A stretch of 64,000 bases of DNA, taken from the NCBI GenBank assembly GCA_044892505.1, contig CM097884.1, positions 156,178,001-156,242,000 of the forward strand. The letters run 5' to 3'. The DNA is from Schmidtea nova (lineage: Eukaryota). Within the stretch, counting starts at the first letter, position 1; each line of letters begins with the position of its first letter. A program made the position numbers and the translations under genes. A model generated the notes under the pieces. That model was not told where the DNA came from and made no database searches. It worked only from the letters and a program-made list of their open reading frames with translations. Positions 24,601 through 52,935 of this stretch are shown piece after piece.

Positions 24601-25567
24601 TCAACATAATTTAAATTACAGATTAATTTGTGCTTCGGTCAATATTATATTTATTTTAATATAACACGATAAATCAAACAAGTTTCTAATCCGTGCTTTT
24701 GGCACAAATATTTTTCCCAATGGTCTTGAAATGCTCTTTTTTCGTTTGGATTTTCAAGATACTCCTGCCATTATGGGTAATTAAGTTTTAATAAATGAAT
24801 ACTTTATCAAACACTAATAATAATTAAATATATAAAAAATGTTGAGTTTATTTTATATAATTTTCAGTAGGAACTTTTTCTCTGACTCCGTGTTCTCTTT
24901 AAATAATCAATGGCTTTACTCAACACAGAAATAATCTTTATTAAGACTAAAGTTTTCACAACAATTTACAATTTTTTTATCCTACGGCAGGGATCCCAAT
25001 AACAAACCTCCTCAAGTGCAACTATATTTCTTTTCACAAACGAACCGTCAAATCCTTGCACGGCTCTGTTTGAATTATTCCACTAGTTACTCTCGCTTAT
25101 GCTGGGTTCATGGAGGGGTTAGATGAAAAATGTTCTAACAATGACTAGCGATCCCTCATCCATGATCATGCATAAAATTGCAATTCTACACTCAAGCGCC
25201 CTTGATTATTTCCCTATATAATCAAGTTGGTGATGCGCAGGGTGGTTAAACAATGATGGGCAGGTGAGCACTATCGCTAGTACTACTCCCCATTTATGTT
25301 TACGGGTTCATTGCTGCCGTTAGAAGGACTTATGCTTTAATCATCTACTTGTGTATTCCGCGTTAATCTTTCAGAAAATTTATTTTTATCATTTCTCAGT
25401 CTGCGAGAAGTATTTCAACGAATGCTCGCTTAATTATTTTGTTATCTCTATTCGATATTTTGTAAACTGAATTTATACTTTTGTTCTATCTTTATCTAAT
25501 CATTGGTAAAGTTAATTAAATCAATTCAAATGAACGATAAAATTCTTAAGCCAATACAACAATTTAT

Positions 25568-26164
25568 TTAATTTCTAATGAGTTCGGTAAAAACTCCCGC
25601 CGGAGGAAAAATCTCCGTCAATAATGCCTCCTCGGTCATCTGATGTAGACCATCTACTTGGCTTTGTAATCGCTGGGCAAATAATTTTCTCTGTCTCCGC
25701 CGTTTCTGCCCAATGCGCTTGCGTTTCTGGTGCGCAGTTGCCGGTGAGGTGGTTGAATTTGCTGCAGGAGCTGTCTCATTCCGACTTTCGAGTAGATCGG
25801 CGACATCCGTGCCAATGGAATTTACCGTCTTCTTTTCGGATGTCCAAGCTTGGTACGTAACCGGACGGATTTGCTCTCTGAGCTCCTTCTCAATATATGA
25901 GGCAGTTACGGAATGGAGGCATTTTCGGAGTTCTATCTTTGTAGCCTCCCATTCCATTTGGTAATTGGCTGCAGTCTGCTGGGCGCGCTCGGTTTTACTG
26001 ATTTGCTCCTTCATTCGGGCCGGAGCAAACCAGCTTTTGCGCAAATATTCAATCTGTGCCTCTGCTTTGATCAATTGTGCCTTGAGGAGACCCAATTCCT
26101 TGTCCTGGGCTCTCCGAATCCGCCACATCTTTTCCAATTCTCTCTGCATCAAATCGGGGTTCAT
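25568..26164 (-). CDS. LTR-encoded 198-aa protein: coiled coil + Arg-rich basic motif
   Basis: Intact in both LTRs (copy at 52148-52744). It contains KRKRIGQKRRRQRK and has AG one base before the ATG. Confidence 0.7.
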   Translation of the reverse strand: MNPDLMQRELEKMWRIRRAQDKELGLLKAQLIKAEAQIEYLRKSWFAPARMKEQISKTERAQQTAANYQMEWEATKIELRKCLHSVTASYIEKELREQIRPVTYQAWTSEKKTVNSIGTDVADLLESRNETAPAANSTTSPATAHQKRKRIGQKRRRQRKLFAQRLQSQVDGLHQMTEEALLTEIFPPAGVFTELIRN

Positions 26165-26355
26165 TCTATAATTTATTCAGGATATTTACTCTATGATTTA
26201 ATTATATGAAAATTAAAATCTGATCATAGGATTATTAGGTCACGAATATGAACTATTAAAATGCGAAACAAAACAAAAAAAAATATAAATAAAAAACAAA
26301 ATTCACTAATGAACTATAATATTTTAATACAATTTCAACATTTGTTGATCAGTTT

Positions 26356-26835
26356 TCATCTTCGAAACAAACAATGCAATTCGCTGTTAATCGGTTTCTG
26401 ACGCAGACGAGCCCAGGAAAACGCAGGTTGTCCTTTCTGGCATTCCTTGCCGAACGGTTTTCGCGGTAGGAATTCGTGCAGACCCAATCGGCATAGCTCT
26501 CGACGGGGGATATGCCCCCAATAAATTACACGGCTTGTCCGTCCATCTGTGTCCTTGATCAGTACGACAAGTCGGCCAAATTTGTTCGAGTACGGCCTTT
26601 GAGAAATCGGCCAGTTCGGTCCTCCTCGATAGAGTATTTCATCGTTTCCTCCGTCCCAGATGGAAAACGGGCACTTTCGACCGAACCCCTGTCGCCACTT
26701 ATATATCTGGCAGTTGAGGGTTCGCAATATCGATGCCGGTAGATCCTTGAGCTGCGAGATATTTCCATTTCGTAGATTCCCTTGTTCCATATTCCGTAGT
26801 TGAGTTAATTGATTCATAAGTTCAGCTGTCGACAT
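26356..26835 (-). CDS. LTR-encoded 159-aa protein of unknown function
   Basis: ATG directly after an AG. The 5'-LTR copy (53041-53415) is truncated by a CGA/TGA difference. Confidence 0.6.
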   Translation of the reverse strand: MSTAELMNQLTQLRNMEQGNLRNGNISQLKDLPASILRTLNCQIYKWRQGFGRKCPFSIWDGGNDEILYRGGPNWPISQRPYSNKFGRLVVLIKDTDGRTSRVIYWGHIPRRELCRLGLHEFLPRKPFGKECQKGQPAFSWARLRQKPINSELHCLFRR

Positions 26836-28436
26836 CTATATTATATTTATTGGATATAAAATATACGAGTTAAGGGGGAAATTCGTTGCTAATTTAATTA
26901 TACTGTATATGATCACAAAAGTTACTTAAAAATAAGATTAATTTGATTTCTCTCCGCCGTGATCTACCACGGTCGGAATAAAGAGTTCATAATTAGTCCT
27001 GTGCTATATACAGCATTCAGGAATTATCACATTTAATCAAGATTTCCGCGCTATATACAGCGGTCGGATTATAACTTGGGAACCGCGCCATATACGACGA
27101 TCGGCCTATTTTTAGTAACTAATTTTAATTTGGATTTTCCGACGCATTCCATCGCGATCGGAATTTATCGATATTAAAATTTTGTAGGCGAGATGCTGAT
27201 TCCGAATGAAATCGGACTTTGGACTACGTTGGATTTTCTCATTCCAGCGAAATTATTCAAATTTATTTTATTTGTTGCTCACTGTTTTTCCATGCGGGAG
27301 GTTCCATTTCAATTCAATTTACTAAAATTTAAAGAATGAACATGCCCTACCATGGGGTGTCCCTCCTTATCAATCCGCCCTCCGCAATCTCCCTATTTGG
27401 CCCTCGACCTCCGTCCGTTGTGCAACCCAGAATTAAATAATTAGTAAATGGTCTGTACTAGACTAAAAATTCAATCAAATTTTCTAAATAAAATTCCACA
27501 TCTAAACTAAATAATAAAAAGGTTGAACCGCCATGTGAGACCCTGAGGCCCCACAACGACGACTCGGACTCCCTCGCCGCGTGAGCAGCATAGGAAGTAT
27601 AGCTATATGCATTTAAGTGTCAATAAAATAATCAATGAAAAAATAAAATAACGTTTACATATAAAATTTTAATTAAATAAAAATCATGGGTACATCATAT
27701 AAGATAAAAAATAACAAAATTACTTCCGTACTTGAATATGTGATTCCTTGTATGAAATTCGGTTTTTTCAAAAATTTACTCAAATCAAAGTTTAGTCTTG
27801 ATCTTGAGTGAAAAGTAAACGTCTATGTCTGTGATTTTTGGATCGGTATTTATACTGATCCGTCTGGTTGGATTGACCAATCAGGATCAGGCCGTCCTTC
27901 AAAGTATTTTTATTATTTTAATCTAATCTAAACATTATTTTGTTTCCTTTTCCGGTTTCTCGCTGGGTGGTCCTGATTTTCCAAGTAATTGATTAATTAT
28001 TTGTACTATTATTTTATTTAATTCTATTTTTTCTTATTTCAGGCCCCCCTTTGCGGTTGTTTACCGGTTTATTTTCAAAATTTCCTTTTACTGAAAATTT
28101 ATCAATTATTATTTGTCGTTTTATTGTTATTTTTAATTTGTTTTTCTTGCTATTTTTATTTTTATTATTTCTTTATTGTTTCATGCTTTTGTTCGTTTTA
28201 TTGTGTTTTTAGGTGATTTGGCGGGCCCAACATCACCCGGGGACCCCTAAAATTGCGTCCCGCAATTAATTATACATAAGTACTTATATTCATCATCCAT
28301 AAAAAGTTTTATAAAGTTATACATGCAAAGAAAAAATCACATAAGGTGATCGAATTTATACATATCATAAAGTTTGTCACTAAATAGTCAAAATGTAATG
28401 ATTTGTCACAATAGTTCGACGAGTTTATCATAATGT

Positions 28437-29006
28437 TTATACAATTTGTTCGATCGTCTGGCTCGCTTGGGGTTGAGTTCGGGTCCTCTCGTTGATCATT
28501 TGTAGCTCGTAGTGGGTTTGAATGTGGTTGAGATGGCTCCTTATTCGTCTTTGAGCTCGGTTATCTCGTCTGGAGGTTTGGTTGTAGATTTTCTGCTTTT
28601 GTTTTAGGATTTTTATTCTATATGAGGCAAGCAGGATTGTGATTGCGATGATAGTTGTGCTGACTGCTAGGATTATGATGATTGCTATGATCCATTTCTC
28701 TTGATATTCTATTTCAGCTTGGGATAGGCTTTTTATGGGTTCTCTACCTTCTTTCAGGATTTTTCGGGTTTCTTCTAGTTTCAGTTGTTGATTATCGAAG
28801 ATTTGTTGGATTTGACGATCTTGATTGTGGGGGAATTTCTGTCGGAATTCGTTGATTTCTTTAATTACTTCTTCGATTAGGCTGTCTACTTTCTGATAGG
28901 TTTTGTCGGGTAGAACTCGTAATTGGGTTTCGGTTAGTTGTAGATCTTCTCTCTGTAGGGTAATGGTTGTTAACCATAGGAGTGTTGCTATTGCGAGCTT
29001 TCTCAT
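28437..29006 (-). CDS. 189-aa predicted type I membrane protein
   Basis: Start MRKLAIATLLWLTTITL (signal-like), a helical ectodomain, TM WIIAIIIILAVSTTIIAITILLASY and a basic cytoplasmic tail. Confidence 0.75.
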   Translation of the reverse strand: MRKLAIATLLWLTTITLQREDLQLTETQLRVLPDKTYQKVDSLIEEVIKEINEFRQKFPHNQDRQIQQIFDNQQLKLEETRKILKEGREPIKSLSQAEIEYQEKWIIAIIIILAVSTTIIAITILLASYRIKILKQKQKIYNQTSRRDNRAQRRIRSHLNHIQTHYELQMINERTRTQPQASQTIEQIV

Positions 29007-29081
29007 TTCTTTTATACATCGGTCAATACAGCTTGACACTTTTTATTTTACATAATTTATTTACACTTGGTTTCCGCACAT

Positions 29082-30143
29082 TTATACAAGGGTTTCGTTG
29101 GGTTCGTGAAAACCTTCGTCTTGAGGTTCCACCTGATTTATGGGGAGTGGCATCCATATTACCGTGCTCCTCCACATTTCGACTTCTTCTCGGTATGTGT
29201 GGGATATCTGGATCTCTTCATCTAATAAGTATTCCAGATAGTTCGCCTGTTCTGTTAGGGTTTCAATTTGTTTTTCTAGTTCTGCCAATTTTTTCTCTCT
29301 CTCTTCCTTCTCCATCATTTCGGTTACTGCTGCTGTGATACTTGTTTCTTTTATTGGTATTGGTTTTTCTGCCAACTTCTTTCTCAGTTCTTCGTTTTCT
29401 TTTGTCAAATTTGTTATGTTCTCTTCATAGCTCTGCCTCGTTTCTTCCAGTCTTTCTTTAGTTCTTTTTAATTCTATTTTCTTCTGGGTGATCACTCCTT
29501 GATATCCATTTATGTCTCTTTTCATGTTTTCCTCCTTGTGATTCCACATTCCGGTCAGCATACCTTTTAATTGTTCTTGATTGGCTAAATCTTCTCCCAT
29601 TCTTTGTACTTGATAAGTTAATTCTTTTATTTTCTTGGCTTGTTCTCTGATGAGTTGTTGTCTTTTCTTACTCCATACTTTATTTGACGCTTCTTGACTG
29701 ATCTTTTGCCCTAATTCCTCTTTTAATTCATCGATCTCTTTAAACAGTTTCCAATCATCGCTGTACGCTGTTCGTTCTATTATCTCCCTTGCTTCCTTGT
29801 AAGAGTCTTTTGCCTCTTTCTTCCAATATCTTGCTTGTTCTGTGATTGACTGAATCTTATGGTCTGTTTTTATTTGTTGTCTATCCCTATCCTCTCGTCG
29901 CTCTTTCATCATCTCTTTGTAGTATTCGTTTTGTTGTCTTAGCAGTTTGTAGACTTCTTCTATTTTTTCTCGACTTCTTTGATTCGTTTTCTCGGCTTCT
30001 CTTAGTGCTTGGGTTTGTCTTTCCAATTCTTCCTGTTTTCGATAATAGGCATGAATCCATATCCCAATCCGCTCCATGTGATTTCTGATCATTTCGTCTT
30101 GATGTACTGTTACTTCTTGTAAGGTTACTTCTATATTTCCCAT
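29082..30143 (-). CDS. 353-aa long coiled-coil protein
   Basis: Uninterrupted ORF with E/K/Q/R-rich heptad-like sequence and the same A-rich codon style as the rest of the element. Confidence 0.8.
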   Translation of the reverse strand: MGNIEVTLQEVTVHQDEMIRNHMERIGIWIHAYYRKQEELERQTQALREAEKTNQRSREKIEEVYKLLRQQNEYYKEMMKERREDRDRQQIKTDHKIQSITEQARYWKKEAKDSYKEAREIIERTAYSDDWKLFKEIDELKEELGQKISQEASNKVWSKKRQQLIREQAKKIKELTYQVQRMGEDLANQEQLKGMLTGMWNHKEENMKRDINGYQGVITQKKIELKRTKERLEETRQSYEENITNLTKENEELRKKLAEKPIPIKETSITAAVTEMMEKEEREKKLAELEKQIETLTEQANYLEYLLDEEIQISHTYREEVEMWRSTVIWMPLPINQVEPQDEGFHEPNETLV

Positions 30144-30256
30144 TTCTATAATTACAGATAAAAAGAATATTTAATCATTTTTTATTTTTATTGTTTTTGA
30201 TTATTCGTTAATTCATATTGTTTCTATACATTTTATTTACATGGTCACTTCCTTCA

Positions 30257-31633
30257 TTACGCCAACCATCCTTTTCTGTCTGTTTTCTCATGCCTCTCCA
30301 TCTCTATGTATAGCGTGTCTGCATATAGTCGCTCCCATAGGTTTTCTTTCCTTATAAACATTGGTTCTCCTGCTGCTAGTCCGCATTCTGTTGTTGGTTT
30401 TTCGCTCGTACTGGTATGTTTGTCTGTTTCAAAGAACTTTTCTACTGGTTTTCCCATACTTTTGATTCTTATAATGACTCCTACTTTCAAGGGCCATTCT
30501 ATTAGGTCATCGTATTCTCCTTTACATAGTGAGAAGAATATTGACACGTGTGTTCCTTGTCCTCTTCCGTCTCCATTTGGGTATACTTTCAATCTTATTT
30601 TAACCCCGTTTTTCCATAAATAAAATGGTGGGCTTATTACTGCTGTTTTCGTCATATTTCTGGCTTCTGCTAGTTTGTCTCTGAAATCTGTTACTTTCCA
30701 TAGGTAAGGTGCGATTGGTAAGTCCCTTCTTTCGTCAATTTCTCGTATTAATTGATTATATTGTATTTTCATTCCTTTTCCTAATTCTTCTATGGCTATT
30801 ATTTTCTTTTCCATTTTTTCGCGAGTTAGTTCAAACTGCTCTCTTGTTTCTAGTAGTAAACTCATCATTATCTTATGTGATTCTACTTCTTTTTCTAATT
30901 TCTGGATTGTCTGTTCCGTTCCTTTTGTCGTTTCGTTTGACATTTCCACATGCGTTAGTGCTGCTTCTTCTAGGTGTTGTTTCATTGATTGCCGCGTCCG
31001 CTTTTCTTTGCATCCCTGTTTGTTATATGGACATTCTCTTGGTCTTTCGGTACATACTTTCCAATGTTCATGTAACTTTACTTCTTCTGTTATTTCGCAA
31101 TTGTTTGGACATTTACTTACATATTGTCTACATACTTTCTCCTCTGTTATATTCAAGTGTTCCTCTTCGATTTTTCTCCTTGTTTCTCGGGCTTCACAAT
31201 ACTCGCATGCGATTTCTTCTTCTTTACATTCTTCCTTGTGTTGTTCTCTCTTCTTTAGAATTATTGTCTGTTGGCACTTCTCGCATTCGGTTCTTTTCTC
31301 CTCGCACTTTTCCATATGGTTTTCTAGATTACTTATTTGTCCTTGCCATGTACAAGGTGTATTTACGCACTCCGTTGTGGTGCTCATAATTTCTCTTTGG
31401 GTTGCTTTGTCCGTTCTGGTTTCGTCCAACACTATTCCTCCTTCTTTACGTTCTGGGCATGTTGTTGTTCCGGTGGTATCTAATTCTTGTATACATTTTG
31501 TACATATTCTACATCCACATATCGTTTGTCTGGGTTCTCGTAATAAATTGTTACATTTTCCGCATGTGAGCCTCTTGCTCCATTTTCTGTTTTCTAATCT
31601 CAAAATTTCGATTATTCGTTCTTCTCTGTCCAT
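30257..31633 (-). CDS. Full-length TRAF-family protein (RING, TRAF zinc fingers, coiled coil, MATH)
   Basis: RING CGKCNNLLREPRQTICGCRICTKC and about five Cys/His fingers. MATH domain YLWKVTDF...SPPFY...YPNGDGRGQGTHVSIFF...GEYDDLIEWP...DTLYIEM. No introns. Confidence 0.95.
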   Translation of the reverse strand: MDREERIIEILRLENRKWSKRLTCGKCNNLLREPRQTICGCRICTKCIQELDTTGTTTCPERKEGGIVLDETRTDKATQREIMSTTTECVNTPCTWQGQISNLENHMEKCEEKRTECEKCQQTIILKKREQHKEECKEEEIACEYCEARETRRKIEEEHLNITEEKVCRQYVSKCPNNCEITEEVKLHEHWKVCTERPRECPYNKQGCKEKRTRQSMKQHLEEAALTHVEMSNETTKGTEQTIQKLEKEVESHKIMMSLLLETREQFELTREKMEKKIIAIEELGKGMKIQYNQLIREIDERRDLPIAPYLWKVTDFRDKLAEARNMTKTAVISPPFYLWKNGVKIRLKVYPNGDGRGQGTHVSIFFSLCKGEYDDLIEWPLKVGVIIRIKSMGKPVEKFFETDKHTSTSEKPTTECGLAAGEPMFIRKENLWERLYADTLYIEMERHEKTDRKGWLA

Positions 31634-31726
31634 TTTCTACAATAATATATACATTCGACTTGTCATTTATTTTTGGATTTTTCTTGTTTTTATTTTTACA
31701 TATTTATAGTTTTCCGCTTTATTTAT

Positions 31727-32083
31727 CTATGGCTCATTCGTTGAATCTGGTTCCGCTTCGTTGTTTAATCTATTTATTACCCAACTCATCCATCCTTCTT
31801 CGGATCCTTCTCTTTCTCCTCGTGTTAAATGGTTTATTTCTATTGCTTGTCTTTGATTGGTGTTGCTTATCGTTTGATTTTCTCTGGTGAGTTCAGTTAT
31901 CGCTCTTTGTTGTTCTTCTATTCTGTGTAATTGTTCAAAACAGTTGTTATAACTTTCTGATAATAACATTTGTCTTTCCGCTAATTGGTTCTGTAATGAG
32001 TTGACTGTTCGTACTAATAAATCACATTGTGCTTTCCATCTCATAGCCATAGTTATTTCAGTTGTTTCGTCCTGTTCGGTCAT
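31727..32083 (-). CDS. 118-aa coiled-coil protein with C-terminal Trp-rich amphipathic segment
   Basis: Heptad-rich core, EGWMSWVINRL near the C-terminus, and AG three bases before the ATG. Confidence 0.7.
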   Translation of the reverse strand: MTEQDETTEITMAMRWKAQCDLLVRTVNSLQNQLAERQMLLSESYNNCFEQLHRIEEQQRAITELTRENQTISNTNQRQAIEINHLTRGEREGSEEGWMSWVINRLNNEAEPDSTNEP

Positions 32084-32208
32084 TTTCTAAATTATATACA
32101 TCATTTACTTTGTTTTTCTAGCTTTTTACAATTTTTATAATATCGATACCCATACTATTACGGTAATGCTTTGTTATTTACACTATTATTTACAGTCATA
32201 ATCCGCCC

Positions 32209-35200
32209 CTATACCATCATTATCGTCTTTTCCTCGTATCGTTCTTCATCTTCTATTTGTTTCCAGAATTCTTTACCTTTCGTTCTTCTTTGAAATTTTT
32301 GCTGTATCTCTTCTGGTATTTCTATTCTTTGCTTCATAATTTTAATATCTGGCCATTGTATGGCTGTCGCTTTGTTTCTCTTTCTGTATCTCCAATATAC
32401 TATTATGCTTGTCGTCAGTATTCCATATGCTATTAATATTCCTATACTCATTAATCCTATTATTGTTTTTCCACGGTTTGTTGCTTTGATTTTATTCTGA
32501 TTCGCTTTAATCTCATTTTGGGTTTGAGCCTCTGGCTTCTTCTCCTTCTGTACTTGATTCTTGACTTTGTTCATTACTTCTTGTGTAGACCAATGGCGGT
32601 TTAGTAGTTGTTTGACGTTATTTTCTTTTGTTCGGTTTTCCATGTTTCCTGGTTCGATCTGTTGTTGTAGTTTCTCTGAGATCTGATATAATCCGCATTC
32701 TGGTTTTTCTGAACCTTCTCTGGTGAAGGTACATATCGCGTATGTCCTATTTACTTCCATTTTCTTTAATTCGACTTTTTCCTTATTCCCTATTTCTTTA
32801 CAGTGGGTTAGGTTGTCTTCTTCCCCTTCTGGGTTATGCTTTGTCCAACATATTCCTTTAACTGTTTGATCGAGTCCTGTTATTGTCAGGGTTCTTTCTG
32901 TCTTTGTTAATTCTTCTTCATCGAATTTCAGTATCTCTCCTTTTTGAAATGTCTTGCACTTTTCTATTCCGGGTTGATCTTCTTGGATTCCTTTCTCCCA
33001 TATACATATACTTCCTTCTTCATTCATTTGTATTTCTTGTATTTCGATTTCCTTGTTTGTTTGTGATTCGTCGCTTGTCTGTACTTGGTATTCCTTCCTT
33101 GGTTCGTTGTATGTTCCCCAGCATAGTTTGTTGCTGCTTGTTTTTCTTATTGTTATGGCCATTTGTTCTATTATTATTCCTCTGTCAAAACGTTTGGACA
33201 TTGCTAGTATTAATGCTATGCATACGCACTCCTGTGGGGGTGATATTCTTTCTCTCGTTTTATTGGTGCTTCTCTCCCCTTCTCTTGGTTTGTTCGTTGT
33301 ATTTTCCTTCTGAGTTGCTGGTCGATCTATTGTGTTTTTGATCTCTTTCTTTGTTGGTTTTACTTTGTACCATTCAAGTCTGGGCGTTTCATATTTTTGA
33401 CATACGACTGTCTTAGGTAGCCCTGACTTCTTTTCCTTTCCTATTATGCATATCCGATGCATGATTCCTCTATCCATCCCTTCTATTCGTATTATATCCT
33501 GGTCGGATTTTCTGATTATGCATTTTAGTGGGTTATCTTTCCCAATTGGTTCATCCTCCCTATTCCAGCATATTTTCTCGACCTCCTGGACATTTACTAT
33601 TTTTATCCCTGCTTGTAGGTTTGTTGCTTCTTCCCTATTGATTAATGTCAATATTATTGTTAGACCCAACCATTTTGAACTCTGCGGTAGGCTTCTGGTT
33701 CGCCTTTCATATTTTTTCTCTTCGCCTTTAATCTCTTTTATTTCCTTGTCTTTGTTGTTTATTCCTAGTTTTCCGCTTTTCGCTTCTTTCTTATTTGGTT
33801 CTTCTCGTGCTTTTTCTTCTAGTATTTCTACTCCATGGCTTGTATTATCTATATTTAGCCATTGGGTTGTTGATTTTCTTGGGCTTATCTTGCGTAGCCA
33901 TATAGCTGATAACGCGATTATTACTGGTATGGTTGCTGTTAATATTCCTAAGCCGATTAGTTCTTTAATTTCTTTATTCTTGTCTGTTTGTATAGGTTCG
34001 CTTTGGTTGAACATTATTCCGTATTGTCCCTTTAGTTTTCTCATTAATTGTTCTCGTTCCTCTTGCTTTCTTTTGACTTCTTTGATAACTTCTTCAGGTG
34101 TCCATTTTGCTTGAGGGTCGGTTATTGTTTTTTCTACGTTCATTTGTTCATTCGTTTGGCTTAGTTCCCTGAATTCGAGTTTCCTTGTTATTCCTTTTGA
34201 TGTTGCGTTCGCTGGTGTATAGTAGGTTTCGCATCTTTCTTGTTGGTTTCCTAGTGCGTCCGTTTTTTCTATTGTACATACTTCGTACTCGCTATTAAAT
34301 TGTAGTTTTTCGATCTTGATTTCTTTATTTGTTTTTCTGCACTCTCTTGATTGTCTTCTTATATGTTTTTGGACTATTATCCAACATATCTCCAATGTTT
34401 TATTCTCTATTTTCCATAATGTCAGAGTTGCTGATGTCTTTTTCTCGGGTTTTGTCGTAACTTCTTGGCTTATCGGTTGTTTATTGTTTTTAAAGGTAGT
34501 GGTGTACTTCGGTTTCCCTTTGTTTCGTTGTCTTCTTTTATTTTTTCGTGTTATCGTTTTAGTTCTTGTTCCGGATGAAGTGGTGTATATTCCGCATTCT
34601 AGATCGTTTATCGTTATCTGATCATTTTTCTTTACCAGACATATTTCGTAAGTTTGTTTCCTTTCTAAACCTTTTATTTGTATCGTCGTTGCTCCTGTGC
34701 TTGTTCGACATTGTGGTGTCTTTCTTTCATTCGTCTCTTTTTCGTACTTCCTCCAGCATACTCCTTTCACATTTGGTTCTATTTCTTTTATTTCTAATGT
34801 TATGTTTAGTTTCTGCTTGATTTGTTTATTTCTCTTCCTCGTTCTCCTTCTGAACTTTATTACCTCTCCAGGTTGGAATGTTTTACATTTTGTGGTACCT
34901 TTCTTGTTCCTCTCTTTTTCAAGTAGGCATAGTTGGTACATCTTGTCTGCTCTTACTTCGGATACTTTAATTACTTTGTTTGTTGTTGGCTTTCGACTTT
35001 TCCTTATTTCGTTTACACCGATTTCTTCGTCATTCCTCGCCCAACATTTTATGTTAGTGTTCTGTGTATCTTCCACTTCTGTTATTGTCATAGTTTCAAT
35101 TTCTATTCCTTCCTCTAATCGTTTTATTATTATTAGTATGAGTGCTAAGCATAATACTTCCATTTGGTAAGACACTCTTTCGGTTTCGTTTGTGGCCACT

Positions 35201-35640: not shown

Positions 35641-35675
35641 TGTTAGTAATAGTAATTCTGGTTTGAAGAATGGTT

Positions 35676-43394: not shown

Positions 43395-43714
43395 GATTGG
43401 TCTCTTTCCGTTCCTGGCATGACAATTGCTGAATAATGTCCTCTCCCGCAGTAGAATGCGAATCTCGTCTTCTGCACTTTACATTCATTCACCATTGTCT
43501 TTATGAGTTCTGCTTCTTGATACACGTGGTACCATTGTTCCTTTTTAATCTTTTGCAACTCTACTGGAGTCGCATCTTTGCATTGCTCCGTACCTCTCAA
43601 TGAATACTTTTCTCCTAACTTCATTTGGTCGCAATCAAACACTTCGAATGCTGTTGCGCTATCGGTGCTAATCATCCAAATCAACATCATCATTATTATA
43701 GCACTCAGATTCAT
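41760..43714 (-). CDS. Class III fusion-type envelope glycoprotein (chuvirus G / herpes gB-like), split by a -1 shift at ~43400
   Basis: Signal MNLSAIIMMMLIWMISTDSATA|FEVFDC, then YSL...C, VYQ, FYCG..HY, VAG...CQG, NNK...LYYDL..NDC, GEAMYVYIC, VQPVTRII, GIYS..DL and TM WGRFLIFGQMMAGILGVILII. Family recognised from memory of the motif series. Confidence 0.82.
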
Positions 43715-45550
43715 TGATGACTTTGCGTTTCCTGTTCCTGCTTGTTCTTTTCCTAACTCTTCCAATATTTTTTCGAATTTCTTTTTCATATTCTTGGCTT
43801 GTGTTTTCTTCTGGTTAGTTTTTATAAATGTTTCCCATCCTCCTTTGTTAATGACGTATGGTTCTATTTCTCTCGCTATAATTTTTGCGGTATTTTTTAT
43901 ATGTCTCTCTAATGCAGTGGGTTTTGGTCGACCTCTACTCAGTGTCAACAGATTGTAGATCGTGTATGCAATAGCTATTACGTATTTGTTATCTGTTTCC
44001 GCTCCTTCTGTCAGTTTCTTTATTAACATAGTGGTTCCTTGCCAGTCTAAGTGATTTGATTTCGTCTTCTCTTTTATGAATTCCGGTAAGATGGGTGCGA
44101 TTGCGCTGTGTAGTGACTTCGCCTTTTCGCTTATCTCCGTTATACGCCAGTATTTTCTTAATTCCGGATCAATTATTGCCAATAGTTCCATTATTGTTTT
44201 CGATATCCATTCCTCCCCTTGACATATTGGTGTTGTCTCTTTTTCTTTCATCTCTGCGATTTTGTTTAATTTCTTTAAACATAATTCCCATTGATCTTGT
44301 CTCTTTTCATCCTTATTTCTGATAACTACTGTTGCTGGGTCTGTCTTGGGTCTACCTCGAGGTCGTTTATCCATTCCTGTACCTGTTTCCACAAACCTTG
44401 TTGCTCGTCCGGTTTCTTCGGTGACATCTCTTGGTTCGTTAGCTCTTTCTTCTAACCATCTTTCCATTTCTTGTGTTAATTGTACATTTTCGACATTCGC
44501 TCCTCTCGTTTCATCTTCCGTCAAATCGTTTACCTCTTCTATTATTATCTCTTCTTCGACTTCTGTTTCTCCGGTGTTGGTTACTTGTATTGTTGTAGGT
44601 AGTTCTTGTATTCTTTCGAAAATGTTATCGTCCTTTTCCCTTGTTAATTCGGTTAATTCTTCTATCATATCGTCGCTGTCTGTAAATATTTCGTCCACGT
44701 CATATGGTTGTGGTGGAGTCCTTTCTCTATTTCCTCTGGGTGTTGTCTCAGATCGTCTCGAACTTGTCCCTGGTGTTAGTGCTGATTTCATCGGGCTCGG
44801 CGTACTTATACTTCCGTGTGGTTTATGGTTTTCTTCTTTACGTTTCAATGGTTGACCCGCTATTGCTTCTACTGTCAAGGTATTCATGAGGTCTAATTGT
44901 GCTGGCGTTATTCCAATCTCTAAACTGTTATCTAATGATCGTCCTTGGTGTTGTAAATGGAATGGTGGTTCGTATCTCAATTTCTTTTTAATATCTCGAA
45001 TTTTTTCTGCTATTCCTACCCAGAGCTCTTCCTTATCCTTGTTTGGATATATTATTCTTAAATGTACTTTTTGTGGAATTTCTTGCGAGAATTCTTGATT
45101 TCTCCATTTCCTAATTACGTGGTCTAGTTGTTCCGGGCACCACTCGTTAACTCTTTTATATTCCGCGATTGCTTTTGCTACTTTACGTAAGCATGTTATA
45201 TCCTCCCCATTTACCACGAAAAAATCTGTGAGACCCTTTATTACTTTTCTCTTACCGTGCGCATTAGTTTTTAATATTTCGACGAATTCTTCCGTTTTTT
45301 GCTTTTCCCTTTCCAACCACATAGCCGCGGTTTCTGGTCCATCTAGGTCTATTGGCGTAGCTTTCCTTGTCACCATGCAAACCCTTCCCATCTCTGGTTC
45401 GCAGTCATCTTCAATTCCTCTTTTATATTCTTCTTCATATTCCCCTTCTTTTGGTTCCCAACATTTTCCTTTCTCGTTCCATTGTTTTTCTACGGGTGTT
45501 CGTATTCGTCTGTTGAGATTGAGTTCTTCTAATACATTTTCCCACTCTGG
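43346..45550 (-). CDS. Polyprotein segment with AT-hook, Bcl-2-like domain and envelope N-terminus
   Basis: In frame with the upstream ORF across the TAG at 45551-45553. It carries KRPRGRPK (~44345-44368), EPYVINKGGWETF (~43830-43865) and the envelope signal peptide. Confidence 0.8.
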   Translation of the reverse strand, partial: PEWENVLEELNLNRRIRTPVEKQWNEKGKCWEPKEGEYEEEYKRGIEDDCEPEMGRVCMVTRKATPIDLDGPETAAMWLEREKQKTEEFVEILKTNAHGKRKVIKGLTDFFVVNGEDITCLRKVAKAIAEYKRVNEWCPEQLDHVIRKWRNQEFSQEIPQKVHLRIIYPNKDKEELWVGIAEKIRDIKKKLRYEPPFHLQHQGRSLDNSLEIGITPAQLDLMNTLTVEAIAGQPLKRKEENHKPHGSISTPSPMKSALTPGTSSRRSETTPRGNRERTPPQPYDVDEIFTDSDDMIEELTELTREKDDNIFERIQELPTTIQVTNTGETEVEEEIIIEEVNDLTEDETRGANVENVQLTQEMERWLEERANEPRDVTEETGRATRFVETGTGMDKRPRGRPKTDPATVVIRNKDEKRQDQWELCLKKLNKIAEMKEKETTPICQGEEWISKTIMELLAIIDPELRKYWRITEISEKAKSLHSAIAPILPEFIKEKTKSNHLDWQGTTMLIKKLTEGAETDNKYVIAIAYTIYNLLTLSRGRPKPTALERHIKNTAKIIAREIEPYVINKGGWETFIKTNQKKTQAKNMKKKFEKILEELGKEQAGTGNAKSSMNLSAIIMMMLIWMISTDSATAFEVFDCDQMKLGEKYSLRGTEQCKDATPVELQKIKKEQWYHVYQEAELIKTMVNECKVQKTRFAFYCGRGHYSAIVMPGTERDQSCYKEKTAKHCLNMEK

Positions 45551-48205
45551 CTAAATTCGCCAATTTCGATAAATTTCTACTATTTGTTGTAATTTGCGCA
45601 CAACTTCTTTCCGTCGTTCCCGTTCTTTTTTCTCGTCTTTAGCAGTTTCTCTTGGTGTATCGTCCATTCTGCTAACGTGGATGGTTTGGTGATTATCCCA
45701 TATACCGATTTTATATAGTCGTCTCTCATCGTGATCCCATAATACATGTTCGTTGTATTGTATGATTATGTCGTCTTCCCATTCGTCTTCTGGTTCTCTT
45801 TGCACTAGTGTCTCGTTGATGACATTTATTAATTCTTTAATGGTGCAGTCCGCTACCACTTCGATTTCTTTGGTGTCTTCATTAGGTAACTCTACTGAAA
45901 TTTTTAGATCTGTTATTTTCCCTTGTCTGAACATTGTTTTTCCCATTTTTGCGATTAATTTATCGTGTGAGATTTGTGACCATCTCGTGTGACTTGTGTC
46001 ACGTATGCACTCAATACATCGTTTCAATTTCTCGTATTCGCTTCTCATTAACTCTTTTCTATGTTTTTTGACTTGTGGTATGATTTGTTCTATCAGGGAA
46101 TTTAGATTCTTTCGTAAGACTCGTTCTTTCTCGTATTCTAACCGAGGTTTTATTCTCCTTTCGAAGCACGTGTTTGCCTCCCTTGCAACTTCTTGTAGGT
46201 TTTCTTCTTCCTTTTCATCACATATTGATAATAGGGTTATTTCTCCTGGCCATATACCTGTTTCTACTAAGTGCGTTCTTTTCTTTACGAGTCTATTCTG
46301 CGAATAGATGAATTTGTTTTTATATGAACTCCCTAGTCTGTCCTCTACCCATCTGTAGATATCATCTGTAAATGGAGTTTTGATCCAGATTCTTGGTGTA
46401 GATGTATTTATTATTATTGAGATGGTGTAATTGAGAAGTGGTTCCTCTATTAATTTCCCTACGTATCGATTCAACATGTCTACTTCCCGGTCTTGTAACC
46501 ATTCTTTGTAGTTCATTTGTAATAATGCTTTCATGAATTTCCGATATTGTTTCTTGTCCATGAACTCTTCGTTATATATTACTTCTAGCGAGTTATCTAG
46601 TAATTTCTGGATTTCATCTACTTTTATCTGTGTAGGTTCTGAGGTCTTTATTACTTCTCTCTCTTTATTTTCGTCTTCGGATTCGTTTAATATGTCTCCT
46701 GCTAGGCTACTGATATCACTATCTTCTTCTTCATCGGAAAACTCTCTGGTGGTATTTCTTAACATATTAATATGTGCTGTTTGGTTCGTTTCTCCTTGTA
46801 TATTCTCCGTTGGTTCTGGTTCGTTTTTGTCAATTTCTGGTGTTGGTTCACTCTTGTCCTCTATTACTTCGACTTTTTCCATTTTCTTTCCCAACTCGTC
46901 TATCTCTTTTAAACGTCTTCTTATCATTTTTCCTTCAAATATTCGCCGGATTCGGGTTTCGTGACGTATTGGTGGTGGTATTTCTTCTGGTTCTATTTCT
47001 TTAATTCTCATCACATTTCTTTTTGTTTCTACTACTCCCATGTTTTCCCATATATCCGTTAATTTCAATTTTACTGATGGTGCATCTCCTATTTGTAAGA
47101 ACGCTTCTCTGGGCAGCTTCGTTACTCCTGGAATCATCTGGTTTACTTTGTTGAATAATACTTTCACTTCTTCTTTTACGTTATATTGAAACCTAAACAC
47201 ATGGTCGTTGGGCATTATTACCATCATTCCTTTTTTCCAAATTTTCCTTCTCTCTTCCTGGTTTATCTCAGTTTCCCCTTCCTTTTTTATTTCTTTTTCT
47301 ACTTCTTCATCTTTTTGTACTATCTCTTTTCGACTTTCGTTGTCGGCTGGATTTGGGTCTATCGAATTCATTTCTAGTGTGGTTTCTTTCTCGCGAGTGT
47401 CTGTTTGGTTTGTTGCTCTTAGCATGTTAATTCTTAGAGGTTGTCGTTCTCTTTCTTTCTGTTTTTGTTCATCCTCTCTTTGTATTCTTGCCCATTCCTG
47501 AGCGTGTCGTGCCTGACTTTCTCGATTCAATCGTTCGTTTTCGCTTTCTATTTTTCTCATCATGCTAATTTGCTGTTGATTGGTTTGCGGATTTCCTCTC
47601 GTCGTATTGTTTATAAGTTCCGTCAATCTTTGGACTTCTTGCATTAAATGTATTTCTTTGGGGGTGGTTTTGTTCTGATTATTGTTATTATTGACTTGTT
47701 GGTTCCCATAATCTGGTCGGTTTACGGTATTTGCTTGATTTCCGTAATTTGGTCGGTTCCCATTACTCTGCCAGTTTCCTCGTTGATTACTTTTTTGTCC
47801 GCAATTTCTTGAATAGTGACCAGGTCGTCCGCAATTAAAACAGATTATTGTAGAACATCTGCTTTCCGAGTGTCCTTTAACTCCACATTTTCCGCAATTC
47901 AAATTTTGATAGCATTCTTGCTGCCAGTGTCCTAACTTCCCGCATGTTTTACATTGTTTTGTTTGTCTTTGAGGGTTGTAATTGTTTTGGCTTTCAAAGT
48001 TCTGCACTTAATTTCCTTCATTCCTTCGTTGAGGGGGTGGTCGGTTTAATTGTTGCGAATTTGGAATGTGATTGTTGAGATTTACCTCTGGTTCGGTTTG
48101 TGCTGTGTCCATGGCTAAATAAATTCTGCCCTCACTTCCTATCATATGCAATTCAAATCGGTTAGCTGTTTCTAACGATTGATCTATGGTTTGCATCCTT
48201 GACAT
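45551..48205 (-). CDS. Gag C-terminal part: three CCHC knuckles and extension with ubiquitin-like domain(s); in-frame TAA at 48008-48010
   Basis: CKTCGKLGHWQQEC, CGKCGVKGHSESRC and CFNCGRPGHYSRNC (~47810-47955). UBL-like LKISVELPNEDTKEIEV...TIKEL...L...GIWDNHQTIHV (~45670-45910). Confidence 0.85.
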
Positions 48206-49245
48206 CCTACTTGCGCTCTTATGTCGGGTCTTCTTAATCCTCCTATGAAGATAGCTGCCATTAACTCCTCGTTTATTGGACCTCCATCCTTGAATACCGA
48301 TTTTGCTAATTTTTTCAGTTCGCTCGCGTATACCGCATTAGATTCATTCATCTTTTGTTTCCTCATTGAAAATTCTATGAATGCCTCGCTTAGCACTTTA
48401 TTTATTCCAAATGTTTGTTGGAAAAAGTCCTTTATCGCTGTCCAGCTTGTAGGTGGATTGGTACCATTTTTCGCTTCCAGATATAGGTCCAATGCACTAT
48501 CTTTCAAATATAACTGAATTCTGCTTACCGTTGTTTCAGCTTTCCACTTGCATACCTCCACGAATATGCCAAATTCTTTTAAAAAGGTTTCTAATTTACT
48601 CGCATCTCCGTTAAACGGTTCTCCTGAAAATTTATCCTTTATTTCTTCTCTTGGTTCACCCATTTCAATTCCGCTGTCTTGAGTTATTTTACTTTCGTTT
48701 CCTCTTGTTTCTAGTTCGTTGTTATGTTCGTCTTCCGTTTTACTCGAGCTTGAATCGCTTTCTGTTTCTCTTATTCCTTCGTTATCTGATATTATACTTT
48801 CGTTATCACTCGCGTTGATTTCTATCTCTGGTTCTACCTCGTTTTCTACTTCTTCGATATTATCGTTGTTAGTTTCGTCGATTTCTCCTTCTTGTTCTAT
48901 CTCGTGTTCTATTTCTTCGATATTATCGTTGTTAGTTTCGTCGCTCTCTATTTCACTTGCTTGGTTCTCCTTGGGTTCGGCTTGGTTTTCTTTGTTACTT
49001 GAGCTGTTGCTTATTATTGACAATTTATCGTTTTCGGTAATCGATTTATCTCTTATTATTTTCCTCGATTTACTCCCTTGTGGGTTATCTTTGCCGGCTT
49101 TCTGCTTTTTTGTTGATTTTGTTGTAGTACTGGTTTTGTCTTTTTTGTTAATGTTGCTACCGACTTTCTTTTCCGTTGGCTTTACTACGACACTCTTTGC
49201 TCCTTTTCTCAAGGGGATTACTTTTGTATACTCAATTTTCTTGTC
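48184..49245 (-). CDS. Gag N-terminal/capsid part, no nearby ATG
   Basis: Basic then acidic low-complexity N-terminus. Capsid motifs FNGDASKLETFLKEF...LYLKDSALDLY...SW..IK..F..TF and MHR-like KQKMNESNAVYASELKKL, then FIGGL. Confidence 0.85.
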   Translation of the reverse strand, partial: DKKIEYTKVIPLRKGAKSVVVKPTEKKVGSNINKKDKTSTTTKSTKKQKAGKDNPQGSKSRKIIRDKSITENDKLSIISNSSSNKENQAEPKENQASEIESDETNNDNIEEIEHEIEQEGEIDETNNDNIEEVENEVEPEIEINASDNESIISDNEGIRETESDSSSSKTEDEHNNELETRGNESKITQDSGIEMGEPREEIKDKFSGEPFNGDASKLETFLKEFGIFVEVCKWKAETTVSRIQLYLKDSALDLYLEAKNGTNPPTSWTAIKDFFQQTFGINKVLSEAFIEFSMRKQKMNESNAVYASELKKLAKSVFKDGGPINEELMAAIFIGGLRRPDIRAQVGCQGCKP

Positions 49246-49824
49246 CTATCTCTTATCGTGTTCTGATTCTTCTTGCTTGATTGATTGATTTGATTGATTT
49301 GTATATCTAAAATACAAAGGTCCTCAACGATACATTATTGTTATCGTCGCGCTTTTATTCCCTTTCTTTCGGGATTACTTATTACTGGGTTTTCATTATT
49401 TCCCAATTCCCAGATTCCCCTTTATTTTTAGTCTATTTAAATTATCTATAGACTGGTCACAATTATCTATTTACGTCGTAATAATTATCTATGTTTTATC
49501 AAATCGATTACTTTTCCCACAGTTTCCCAATTTATTGGTCGCTCGAGCGCTCTAATTCCCTGAGTCTTTCTGACTCGTTTACCATTATTTTATCATCTCT
49601 ATTCATTATTCCCTGCTAGCAATCGTTTTACTCATTCTGCCGGTTGCTCCGGTCAGCTCAAATCTCTACTATTCTCCTTGCATGCTTTACTTAAGGTTGC
49701 ATAATCAGCTTTACTCGCATTTTCTTAACTACTGGTGCGCACTACTCTAAATCTCGTCGACGATTATACTATGGGTCTATATTCCCCCTGTTACTATTTA
49801 TCCGGATATCTCTATAATTCACTA

Positions 49825-50085
49825 TGGCTCTTCTGGCCTCAATTTTATATCTCACATGGCTCTATTGGCCTCATTTTACTATCTCAAATGGCTCTATTGG
49901 CCTCAATTTAATCTCTCAAATGGCTCTATTGGCCTCAATTTAATCTCTCAAATGGCTCTATTGGCCTCAATTTAATCTCTCAAATGGCTCTATTGGCCTC
50001 AATTTAATCTCTCAAATGGCTCTCGTGGCCTCAATTTAATCTCTCATAACGCCTAGCTAGGTCATTCACTATGGCTCATTGGCCT
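49825..50085 (-). repeat. 32-bp tandem array (~7 units) containing CCAAT boxes
   Basis: Unit TGGCTCTATTGGCCTCAATTTAATCTCTCAAA at 49857, 49889, 49921, 49953 and 49985 plus degenerate units. The minus strand reads GGCCAATAG. Confidence 0.95.
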
Positions 50086-50086
50086 C

Positions 50087-50409
50087 AACCCTTTTTTTCA
50101 AGGGACAAACCGCTAATAACCCTTTGTTTCAAGGGACAAATCTCCTAACCCTTTGTTTCAAGGGACAAATCTCATAACCCTTTGTTTCAAGGGACAAATC
50201 TCCTAACCCTTTGTTTCAAGGGACAAATCTCATAACCCTTTGTTTCAAGGGACAAATCTCATAACCCTTTGTTTCAAGGGACAAATCTCTTAACCCTTTG
50301 TTTCAAGGGACAAATCTCATAACCCTTTGTTTCAAGGGACAAATCTCCTAACCCTTTGTTTCAAGGGACAAATCTCATAACCCTTTGTTTCAAGGGACAA
50401 ATCTCCTAA
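50087..50409. repeat. 29-bp tandem array (10 units + 1 degenerate)
   Basis: Unit AACCCTTTGTTTCAAGGGACAAATCTC(A/C/T)T with an internal CCCTT/AAGGG inverted repeat and no spacers. Confidence 0.97.
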
Positions 50410-50885
50410 CTTTACTTAACCGGTTAATCACAATTCCCTACTTCGCTAGCGATTAAAATTTCTCAGCTGAGTTATAACTACTTCTATGCGAGCTGACTAT
50501 GCACCTTTTATTCTCTCAGAATTGTCGTTTATCTCTGTATTCTATCATAACTATTCCTGATCAGTCTGCTTCAACTTTTTATTTATTTTTCTCTATGCGC
50601 GCTTTACTCCATCAAGATTTCCCTATCTCTCTCCCCAACCAAAATATACAAAAAGATCGCGTTGGTCCATTAATGCAGGATGTGGTGATCAATCACATCA
50701 CAAAAACTTTCCAACATTTGCGATGGGCCCCTTTCTATACACCTTGAATAAGTTGATCAATCGGTACCTCCCAATGGATTCCTATCGGACTACTTTGCAG
50801 TAGCTCAAAAATTATTTATATATGACAATTGTACCCATGATTTCCTTATTAATAAATCAATAAAATTCCATTCAAATTTCATTTA

Positions 50886-51347
50886 TTATAAATACACAAT
50901 AATTTTATCGTCAATCATCAGGTTGCACATAGGACATAGGTCGCGCTTGCTGGCACATATTTTACAAAAACGAAAATGTCCACAAGGTAAAAACATAATT
51001 TGTATCTCGGTATCCTCGCATATATAGCACTGTCGGTATTTTTTCGCTGCTTCTACCCCTTGCGCCCTCCATCGATTGTATGTTGGGGTTAATTGTTGTC
51101 CTATTTGCCTGAACTTAATGTTTAGTTCTGCATCTTCTAATCGTGCTCTGTACCATTTGTAGCGGGTCTTTATGTCGATTTTACTTGTTCTTTCTGTTAT
51201 CTTTATTAATTCCTCTGTTTCCTCAGTCTGTGTTGTGGGTTCCTGAAATTCAATTTCTCTAAATCGGTTTATTTTCTTGCCAATCGTTTCTAATGTTTCG
51301 CTTTCTGTGTTGAGAAATTCTTCGATTTCCTTCAGTTTTTCCTCCAT
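50886..51347 (-). CDS. 153-aa protein with C-terminal IAP-type RING finger
   Basis: CYICEDTEIQIMFLPCGHFRFCKICASKRDLCPMC...I..KI.VY* matches the C-terminal RING pattern of IAP/MDM2-class E3 ligases. No BIR motif seen. Confidence 0.9.
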   Translation of the reverse strand: MEEKLKEIEEFLNTESETLETIGKKINRFREIEFQEPTTQTEETEELIKITERTSKIDIKTRYKWYRARLEDAELNIKFRQIGQQLTPTYNRWRAQGVEAAKKYRQCYICEDTEIQIMFLPCGHFRFCKICASKRDLCPMCNLMIDDKIIVYL

Positions 51348-51656
51348 TTACTGAATAAATAATTGTTTTTAACTTTGTTATTTTTATCATTTCTAAAGTA
51401 GTAATATGTTTCGTTTTGTATCTTTTGATATTTATCAATCCTCCCCGTGTTTCCGAAAATTGTCGTCCCGACAAATTATGCATGCATTTTGATTTTTAAA
51501 TTCACTTTTGTTCACTGTCGTGTTGTTATTTAATTTTTATACAATAATTTACATTTAATTATAACCTTTCTGTTTTTTATTAAATTAATTGACCTGAGCA
51601 TTTTAAACCTCTCTGCAGATTTTACGTTTACATTTTTCCGATAAAACGAAGTTGAT

Positions 51657-51673
51657 TCCCGGCTGAGCCCCCA
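51657..51673 (-). promoter_or_regulatory. Primer-binding site, tRNA-Pro
   Basis: Minus strand TGGGGGCTCAGCCGGGA, 6 nt from the LTR end, closely resembles the known tRNA-Pro PBS TGGGGGCTCGTCCGGGAT. Confidence 0.88.
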
Positions 51674-52744: not shown

Positions 52745-52935
52745 TCTATAATTTATTCAGGATATTTACTCTATGATTTAATTATATGAAAATTAAAATC
52801 TGATCATAGGATTATTAGGTCACGAATATGAACTATTAAAATGCGAAACAAAACAAAAAAATATATAAATAAAAAACAAAATTCACTAATGAACTATAAT
52901 ATTTTAATACAATTTCAACATTTGTTGATCAGTTT

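What the first reader, a model, noticed from the sequence alone, without database searches (positions are those of the whole stretch)
25568..51352. Every stand-alone ORF has an AG 0-3 nt before its ATG: a retroelement operon resolved by (trans-)splicing
Seen, 7 of 7: RING TTCAG|TAAATG (51347); 118-aa TTTAG|AAAATG (32083); TRAF TGTAG|AAAATG (31633); 353-aa TATAG|AAATG (30143); 189-aa AAAAG|AAATG (29006); LTR ORFs TATAG|ATG (26835) and TATAG|AATG (26164). The 3' cluster has 75-125-nt AT-rich spacers, most with AATAAA, and host OSGEP also has TTTTTAG|ACAAAAATG. Established: this is the layout of SL trans-spliced operons in nematodes, flatworms and tunicates. Inference: the element uses host SL trans-splicing, or alternative splicing from a common leader, to express a polycistronic accessory cassette.
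Basis: partly seen in the sequence, partly recalled or inferred. Interest (0 to 1): 0.86.

Follow-up and report, generated by a model that had tools for sequence, protein, structure and literature searches.

The report
Giant retroelement splices its accessory genes
A 30-kb virus-like jumping gene, probably of a planarian flatworm, carries seven small extra genes that each have an AG just before the start codon, kept in distant relatives, and it likely makes a separate message for each by splicing from one short leader exon in its terminal repeat; no RNA data were available to test this.

Summary
All 7 stand-alone ORFs of this 29.7-kb Burro-like LTR element have AG 0-3 nt before the ATG (6 of 7 YAG; shuffle product 9e-6). 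In four more distant families of the same genome, 13 of 15 accessory ORFs have YAG within 7 nt (2.8 expected), with TAG/CAG swaps and a changing gap to the ATG. T lies at -5 in 17 of 20 sites. These are very likely 3' splice sites, and an eighth lies before gag.

The AATAAA claim fails (chance level). Instead a paired TGTA(A/T)A box sits 12-21 nt after the stop in 13 of 15 cassette spacers.

The LTR holds a CCAAT/TATA promoter, an ATG-free ~100-nt leader and a GTAATT donor like the host's, kept across LTR variants. So cis-splicing from a common leader is my first choice (0.5). A hybrid with spliced-leader trans-splicing of the 3' cassette is second (0.27). No RNA run was listed, so every splice is inferred. 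The family is known; I did not find this expression layout in the papers I could read, but the main 2026 Burro1 paper was not held.

The parts
25100..54812 (-). Burro-like giant gypsy LTR element, 29,713 bp, TG...CA ends, 4-bp target duplication TAAG
51680..54812 (-). 5' LTR, 3,133 bp, 5 mismatches to the 3' LTR
25100..28232 (-). 3' LTR
54427..54461 (-). predicted promoter: ATTGG (CCAAT box) and TATAAATA; same layout in family B; 3' LTR copy 27847-27881
54304..54409 (-). predicted ATG-free leader exon (start site not mapped)
   Evidence: inferred
54298..54303 (-). candidate 5' splice site GGAA|GTAATT (3' LTR copy at 27723); a second donor-like word about 55 nt upstream
26356..26837 (-). LTR ORF1 (159 aa, no Pfam hit) with TATAG|ATG; 5' LTR copy 53041-53415 ends early at 124 aa
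25568..26167 (-). LTR ORF2 (198 aa, no Pfam hit) with TATAG|AATG; 5' LTR copy 52148-52744
50886..51352 (-). RING ORF (153 aa, C3HC4) with TTCAG|TAAATG
49295..49320 (-). eighth acceptor-like site TGTATTTTAG| (G at 49307), followed by 643 nt without any ATG up to the gag ATG at 48663
32209..48663 (-). gag - fusion glycoprotein - PR-RT-RH-IN - ankyrin polyprotein, broken in this copy (frames end at 48184, 45551, 43346, 35676)
32084..32208 (-). spacer 1: paired TGTAAATA at +14 and +26 after the stop; acceptor G at 32087
31727..32083 (-). 118-aa ORF, no curated family
31634..31726 (-). spacer 2: TATAAATA then TGTAAA at +26; acceptor G at 31637
30257..31633 (-). TRAF ORF (458 aa; zf-TRAF, MATH)
30144..30256 (-). 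spacer 3: TGTA(A/T)A at +15 and +26; acceptor G at 30146
29082..30143 (-). 353-aa ORF, likely coiled coil
29007..29081 (-). spacer 4: TGTAAA at +16 and +29; weak AAG acceptor, G at 29009 (TAG in 12 of 32 siblings)
28437..29006 (-). 189-aa ORF with hydrophobic N-terminus and one likely membrane helix (by eye)
4879..21059 (+). host OSGEP, two coding exons; intron 5367-20536 (CAG|GTAATT ... GATTTTAG|) used as host control

Best explanation
The AGs are likely 3' splice sites, and the element likely makes one message per accessory gene by cis-splicing from a short ATG-free leader exon in its 5' LTR to one of eight acceptors, as complex retroviruses do. Shown: acceptor-like YAG before each start, kept across families; a CCAAT/TATA box, ATG-free stretch and GTAATT word in the LTR; a paired TGTA(A/T)A box just after the cassette stops; purifying selection on the ORFs. 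Inferred: transcription starts about 30 nt after the TATA box; the spliceosome joins the donor at 54303 to the chosen acceptor, removing the 3-4 upstream ATGs of each spacer; the paired UGUA box is a CFIm-type 3'-end signal, so each cassette ORF acts as an alternative last exon; unspliced RNA serves as the genome. The acceptor step I put at about 0.9; the choice of cis over trans for all eight sites at about 0.5.
For: Out-of-sample families B, C, D, E: YAG within 7 nt of the first ATG in 13 of 15 (2.8 expected, P 2e-8), within 3 nt in 10 of 15 (1.5 expected); T at -5 in 17 of 20 sites over all five families (5.8 expected). Orthologous sites swap TAG/CAG and change the gap while synonymous sites are near saturation. 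A matrix from 11 host-type introns ranks five of the seven sites and the gag site in the top 2.1% of 2,331 AGs. Donor GT unchanged in 21 of 21 aligned LTRs where 10% of flanking letters vary; a third LTR variant (7 of 31 loci) has an unrelated leader but GGAA|GTAATT at TATA+134; family B has AAG|GTAATT at TATA+108; the host OSGEP donor is CAG|GTAATT. Of 4 LTR copies lacking G after the exon end, 3 keep GTAA one base on. Families C and D put CCAAT-TATA-leader-GTAATT-short intron-acceptor before their single accessory ORF, a plain cis layout. dN/dS 0.07-0.27 for the four cassette ORFs. PMC4558846 (passages) reports an LTR donor spliced in cis to an SL acceptor in a tapeworm and states that cis donors out-compete the SL.
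Against: No RNA junction was seen or could be sought. A donor word within 150 nt and with no ATG before it arises by chance at about 0.15 per region; E's candidate lies 350 nt out, and TATA boxes were picked by eye. A and B are kin, as are C and D, and E is a distant kin of A, so families are not fully independent. Reaching the last acceptor needs a 25-kb intron past seven acceptors and several 3'-end boxes. The 189-aa site scores poorly in this copy (rank 59%) and LTR ORF1 only top 10%; other AGs score higher than the claimed sites. Spacers of 73-263 nt match flatworm operon spacing, where cis-splicing is reported to be lowest (PMC12582326 section 11; PMC8629364 passages). The UGUA reading is untested and the fixed distance from the stop is unexplained.
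Confidence: 0.5

Rival explanations
1. Hybrid operon: the LTR donor serves the near acceptors (LTR ORF1, ORF2, RING, gag), while the 3' cassette is cut at the paired UGUA boxes and each freed downstream piece, now without a donor, receives the host spliced leader. One transcript would yield five messages.
For: The paired box marks 13 of 15 spacers that precede another ORF, and is absent after RING, both LTR ORFs and the last cassette ORF. Spacer length fits operons (peak about 100 bp in Macrostomum; 300 bp or less in parasitic flatworms). SL genes are reported in Schmidtea (PMC10899757, PMC7346339 passages). No good donor lies inside the spacers.
Against: The flatworm SL ends in AUG, yet gaps are a multiple of three in only 11 of 22 sites, two of them with an immediate stop, and orthologous sites change frame; this is weak, since natural SL targets are often out of frame (recalled). 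Kin C and D use an internal promoter and cis intron. Efficient internal cleavage competes with genome RNA. The SL gene was not searched for in G000.
Confidence: 0.27
2. All eight acceptors are SL trans-splice sites and the LTR GTAATT is incidental.
For: Sites resemble the UUNYAG motif of flatworm SL acceptors; a single donor word has a chance of about 0.15.
Against: Donor kept at a fixed distance across three LTR variants and family B; an upstream cis donor is reported to out-compete the SL.
Confidence: 0.07
3. Each ORF has its own small internal promoter, or is reached by reinitiation or readthrough; the AG and the TGTAAATA are DNA elements (initiator, forkhead- or TATA-like) and no splicing occurs.
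For: TATA-like words lie in spacers 1 and 2 of A and spacer 1 of B; C and D do have internal promoters.
Against: YAG with T at -5 is a splice signature; the TGTA box is tied to the upstream stop (14-20 nt), not to the downstream ATG (53-249 nt); each A spacer holds 3-4 upstream ATGs; no CCAAT-TATA-donor module was found near the cassette in A or E.
Confidence: 0.1
4. Splicing is as in the best explanation, but the paired TGTA(A/T)ATA is not a cleavage signal: it is a Pumilio-type site or a shield against nonsense-mediated decay beside each stop, and all messages end in the 3' LTR. (This overlaps the best explanation; the figure is for the box alone.)
For: Most boxes read TGTAAATA, matching the PUF element UGUAHAUA (recalled); AATAAA is not kept; the 14-20 nt offset lies just outside a terminating ribosome (recalled); only 2 of 30 host-type TRAF ends have the box.
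Against: Paired UGUA is a documented CFIm signal in mammals (PMC10476966 passages; its spacing there is 5 nt, here 7-13), and several boxes overlap AATAAA.
Confidence: 0.35

Closest known systems
Burro / GYPSM1 giant gypsy elements of dugesiid planarians (PMC6431247 section 7)
   Same: About 30 kb, huge polyprotein with N-terminal gag and CCHC knuckles, mononegavirus-like fusion protein between gag and protease, ankyrins, TRAF/MATH, tandem repeats, accessory ORFs, many copies.
   Different: TRAF is a downstream stand-alone ORF here (in the polyprotein in S. mediterranea Burro1, upstream in D. tigrina); no BIR in this family (family E has a BIR-RING ORF); two ORFs inside the LTR. That section says nothing on splicing.
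Complex retroviruses and the adenovirus major late unit (recalled)
   Same: One leader with a major donor, many acceptors each just before an accessory start; in adenovirus also alternative poly(A) sites.
   Different: A gypsy-type element of an invertebrate; ORFs do not overlap and are set apart by short AT-rich spacers with a paired TGTA box; no Rev-like export system identified.
SL-resolved operons of nematodes and flatworms (PMC8629364, PMC12582326)
   Same: Same-strand ORFs about 100 nt apart, 3'-end-like signal then acceptor.
   Different: A conserved cis donor lies upstream on the same transcript; no SL reads shown; the genome RNA must stay uncut.
ta-TRIM of Echinococcus (PMC4558846 passages)
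   Same: Flatworm LTR element whose LTR starts transcripts that are cis-spliced, once onto an SL acceptor.
   Different: Tiny and non-coding; the acceptors are host genes, not its own cassette.

Membership tests
Burro-like gypsy elements | about 30 kb with long LTRs, many copies | tested here: met
   29,713 bp, LTR 3,133 bp; 92 scored TRAF matches at 95-100% of 4,425 candidates
Burro-like gypsy elements | single ~5,000-aa polyprotein with N-terminal gag and CCHC knuckles | tested here: met
   5,487-codon frame in one of two siblings; Retrotrans_gag below cut-off, zf-CCHC E 2e-9
Burro-like gypsy elements | fusion glycoprotein between gag and PR-RT-RH-IN, ankyrins after | tested here: met
   PF24664, RVP, RVT_1, RT_RNaseH, rve, Ank_2 in that order
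Burro-like gypsy elements | TRAF/MATH in the polyprotein or an accessory ORF | tested here: met
   accessory ORF 30257-31633
Burro-like gypsy elements | BIR, BCL2-like, ubiquitin-like and dUTPase-like motifs | tested here: inconclusive
   No Pfam hit in family A; the review found some only by HHpred; BIR-RING in family E
Burro-like gypsy elements | sequence kinship to Burro1-4 and a dugesiid host | not testable with these tools
   No Burro reference held; OSGEP hits at 65-78% across eukaryotes do not place the host
SL-resolved operon | acceptor before each downstream ORF, short spacers | tested here: met
SL-resolved operon | 3'-end formation inside each spacer | tested here: inconclusive
   AATAAA at chance; paired TGTA box enriched but function untested
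SL-resolved operon | SL exon joined at the acceptors | not testable with these tools
   no RNA holder listed
SL-resolved operon | no usable cis donor upstream | tested here: inconclusive
   conserved donor in the LTR, none convincing in the spacers; depends on cleavage
Common-leader alternative splicing unit | promoter, ATG-free leader and conserved donor upstream of all acceptors | tested here: met
   by sequence only
Common-leader alternative splicing unit | leader-acceptor junctions in RNA | not testable with these tools

The most novel reading that the evidence does not exclude
Burro-type elements run a true eukaryotic operon: a retrovirus-like element cuts its 3' cassette at paired UGUA boxes and has the host spliced leader cap each downstream piece, using a portable stop-box-acceptor module that lets it add genes such as TRAF and the BIR-RING inhibitor of apoptosis one by one.
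Probability: 0.3. Interest if true: 0.82.

Novelty: new variant of a known kind. Interest (0 to 1): 0.6.

Why it matters
Burro elements are among the largest LTR retroelements, and a Burro1 BIR-RING protein is reported to protect planarian stem cells (seen only as cited in PMC13465017). How such an element expresses seven or more small genes has not, in what I could read, been described. The layout gives exact, cheaply testable junctions and suggests a reusable module (stop, paired UGUA, acceptor, ATG) that also flanks the BIR-RING gene in family E. Two of the genes sit inside the LTR behind the same promoter, so solo LTRs could express them. If the spliced leader is used, it would be a retroelement borrowing host trans-splicing.

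Tried and rejected
RNA test: no RNA holder listed. The four runs of unknown kind were laid on 25097-36200: contigs cover the spacers; none of the 15 joints shown (4 more hidden) or the 12 rows of table 5c (5 hidden) joins the donor to an acceptor; one loose end looks like a transposase adapter (recalled), so these are probably DNA libraries and say nothing on splicing; their depth was not used. Spliced retrocopies: the exon-end motif followed by A/T gave 0 sites (18 with GT) and, shortened, 7 sites: 4 LTR copies and 3 unrelated, none spliced; only two LTR subfamilies were probed, so power is low. AATAAA as signal: rejected. Absence of TGTAHATA from the polyprotein: not significant (0 against 0.7). 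Sibling conservation of AG as proof: weak, since 28-56 of 65 spacer columns are also invariant. RNA-derived proteins with an SL-born N-terminal extension: the TRAF search returned 5 distant proteins, none from this family. Atlas searches for both LTR ORFs gave nothing usable. OSGEP search did not place the host. Earlier scan findings: none. Papers not held: Lee et al. 2026, Rossi et al. 2014, Grohme et al. 2018.
Full report
What the element is. The finding lies in one LTR retroelement on the minus strand, 25100-54812, with 3,133-bp LTRs that differ at 5 places, TG...CA ends and a TAAG target duplication. Pfam gives, in order, a weak gag hit, a Monjiviricetes fusion glycoprotein, protease, RT, RNase H, integrase and ankyrins, plus a RING ORF before gag and a TRAF ORF after the polyprotein. 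In the window the polyprotein is in five pieces; one of two full-length siblings has a single 5,487-codon frame, so the seven short ORFs are the true stand-alone ones. This is the architecture of planarian Burro elements (PMC6431247 section 7, read in full). The planarian host is inferred from that; OSGEP did not place it. The four cassette ORFs show dN/dS 0.07-0.27 against 8-17 of 20 siblings, and pairwise dN is well under dS for RING and the LTR ORFs, so they are likely translated.

The observation. AG ends 0-3 nt before all seven ATGs, as YAG in six. Of 582 sense ATGs, 32% have AG and 13% YAG in that range; local shuffles give a product of 8.7e-6. Among close siblings the AG changed once in 418 letters, RING swaps CAG/TAG, and the weak 189-aa site is TAG in 12 of 32 copies; by itself this is weak, as most spacer columns are also invariant.

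Out-of-sample test. Family searches led to four other families, fetched. B has the same cassette at 34-52% protein identity; E is more distant (26-36% for four ORFs) and adds a BIR-RING ORF and three others; C and D are 16-17-kb elements with one accessory ORF. Taking the first ATG of each accessory ORF, one copy per family, YAG lies within 7 nt in 13 of 15 (2.8 expected) and within 3 nt in 10 of 15 (1.5 expected); the 7-nt range was chosen after seeing B. The misses are in E: one has its YAG 18 nt up, the other has TTTTAG one base before Met19, which restores a 95-nt spacer. T stands at -5 in 17 of 20 sites with a YAG (5.8 expected), a position not used to pick them. One further family-C-like copy (G) had no YAG before its first ATG and was not in the count. 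A matrix from 11 host-type introns, ten of them TRAF paralogs placed by eye, ranks RING, 118, TRAF, 353 and LTR ORF2 in the top 2.1% of 2,331 AGs, LTR ORF1 at 10% and 189 at 59%. It also ranks an eighth site, G 49307, sixth; it is present in 18 of 18 siblings with a found gag start (20 fetched), has a counterpart in B, and is followed by 643 nt without ATG (4-8 expected; 17 of 18 siblings have none). I take the sites as 3' splice sites at about 0.9.

What supplies the 5' end. The LTR has ATTGG at 54461 and TATAAATA at 54434, then no ATG up to GGAA|GTAATT at 54303; family B has the same boxes and AAG|GTAATT 108 nt after TATA. The host OSGEP intron starts CAG|GTAATT and host-type TRAF introns GAA|GTAAA. 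The GT is unchanged in 21 of 21 aligned LTRs. Of 31 loci, 27 gave a TATA box and all 27 are ATG-free up to their first donor word, at +131-142 in 18, +75-84 in 8 and +129 in 1; seven carry an unrelated leader with GGAA|GTAATT at +134 and new YAGs before both LTR ORFs. C and D place their own CCAAT-TATA, ATG-free leader, GTAATT and a short intron before their accessory ORF. Against this: such a word arises by chance at about 0.15 per region, E's candidate is 350 nt out, and kin are not independent. No spliced retrocopy was found. Passages in PMC8629364 and PMC4558846 state that an upstream cis donor prevents or out-competes SL addition.

TGTA(A/T)A begins 12-21 nt after the stop in 13 of 15 spacers of A, B and E (0.28 expected; the motif was seen first in A, and E alone gives 6 of 7, P 2e-10), mostly with a second copy 7-13 nt on; its distance to the next ATG varies from 53 to 249 nt. 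It changed in 2 of 992 letters among siblings against 278 of 10,106 elsewhere in the spacers (copies are related). It is missing after RING, the LTR ORFs and the last cassette ORF, and follows 2 of 30 host-type TRAF stops. Paired UGUA is a CFIm 3'-end signal in mammals (PMC10476966 passages); a Pumilio site or decay shield is the alternative (recalled). Untested.

Mechanism. Most likely (0.5) one LTR promoter makes a long RNA that is left whole as genome or spliced from the leader to one of eight acceptors, each cassette ORF ending at its own box. Second (0.27), the donor serves the four near acceptors and the 3' cassette is cut and SL-capped: the box sits only where another ORF follows, and the spacing fits flatworm operons. 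The gap to the ATG is a multiple of three in 11 of 22 sites and shifts between orthologs, which neither needs nor excludes the SL's terminal AUG. Pure SL (0.07) and internal promoters without splicing (0.1) fit worse. No RNA run was listed and the runs laid were uninformative.

Novelty. The family is known. Searches for Burro with trans-splicing, subgenomic RNA or a common leader (listings seen) and passages of PMC8532177 and PMC13465017 showed no account of how accessory ORFs are expressed. Lee et al. 2026, Grohme et al. 2018 and Rossi et al. 2014 were not held, and the first may describe the B-IAP transcript. Verdict: a real, conserved splice-acceptor cassette in a known giant element; new variant of a known kind; interest 0.6.

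Noticed in passing
window 55160-56024 (-): Solo LTR of the 17-kb family C, 92.7% identical to a family C LTR, about 350 nt upstream of the 5' LTR.
   Followed up: partly
window 48664-49245 (-): An open, ATG-free frame of 194 codons (basic then acidic) in frame with gag, 173-197 codons in 17 of 18 siblings and 121 in family B; family E starts a similar acidic stretch with ATG right after an acceptor. A non-AUG start is possible.
   Followed up: partly
window 25568-26835 and 52148-53415 (-): Two ORFs of unknown function inside the LTR, in at least three diverged variants under purifying selection; family B's 1.7-kb LTR lacks them.
   Followed up: partly
G000:C1 near 14.84-14.86 Mb (L083-L086) and two more copies: Family E: about 25-kb element without a long pol frame in the copies seen, with RING, TRAF, BIR-RING and further ORFs; at least 150 scored BIR matches in the genome, most in a 399-codon frame.
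   Followed up: partly
L063-L070: Families C and D have a 32-nt GT...AG stretch just before gag that may be a micro-intron (seen by eye).
   Followed up: no
window 51660-51679 and 28233-28262 (-): Primer-binding site resembling tRNA-Pro (recalled) and a GC-rich stretch before the 3' LTR, both alike in families A, B and E.
   Followed up: no
window 49792-50460: Tandem arrays of 32-nt and 29-nt units between RING and the gag acceptor.
   Followed up: no
window 27322, 27463, 27507 (-): Further strong acceptor-like sites in the LTR between the donor and ORF1; possible extra leader exons.
   Followed up: no
window 5367-20536: 15-kb OSGEP intron holding ORFs and inverted repeats that look like DNA transposons; a 274-bp tandem array follows the gene at 21011-24573.
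   Followed up: no
G000:C2 405-455 Mb (L013-L042): Large cluster of host-type TRAF/MATH genes, many with ~45-nt A-rich introns.
   Followed up: partly
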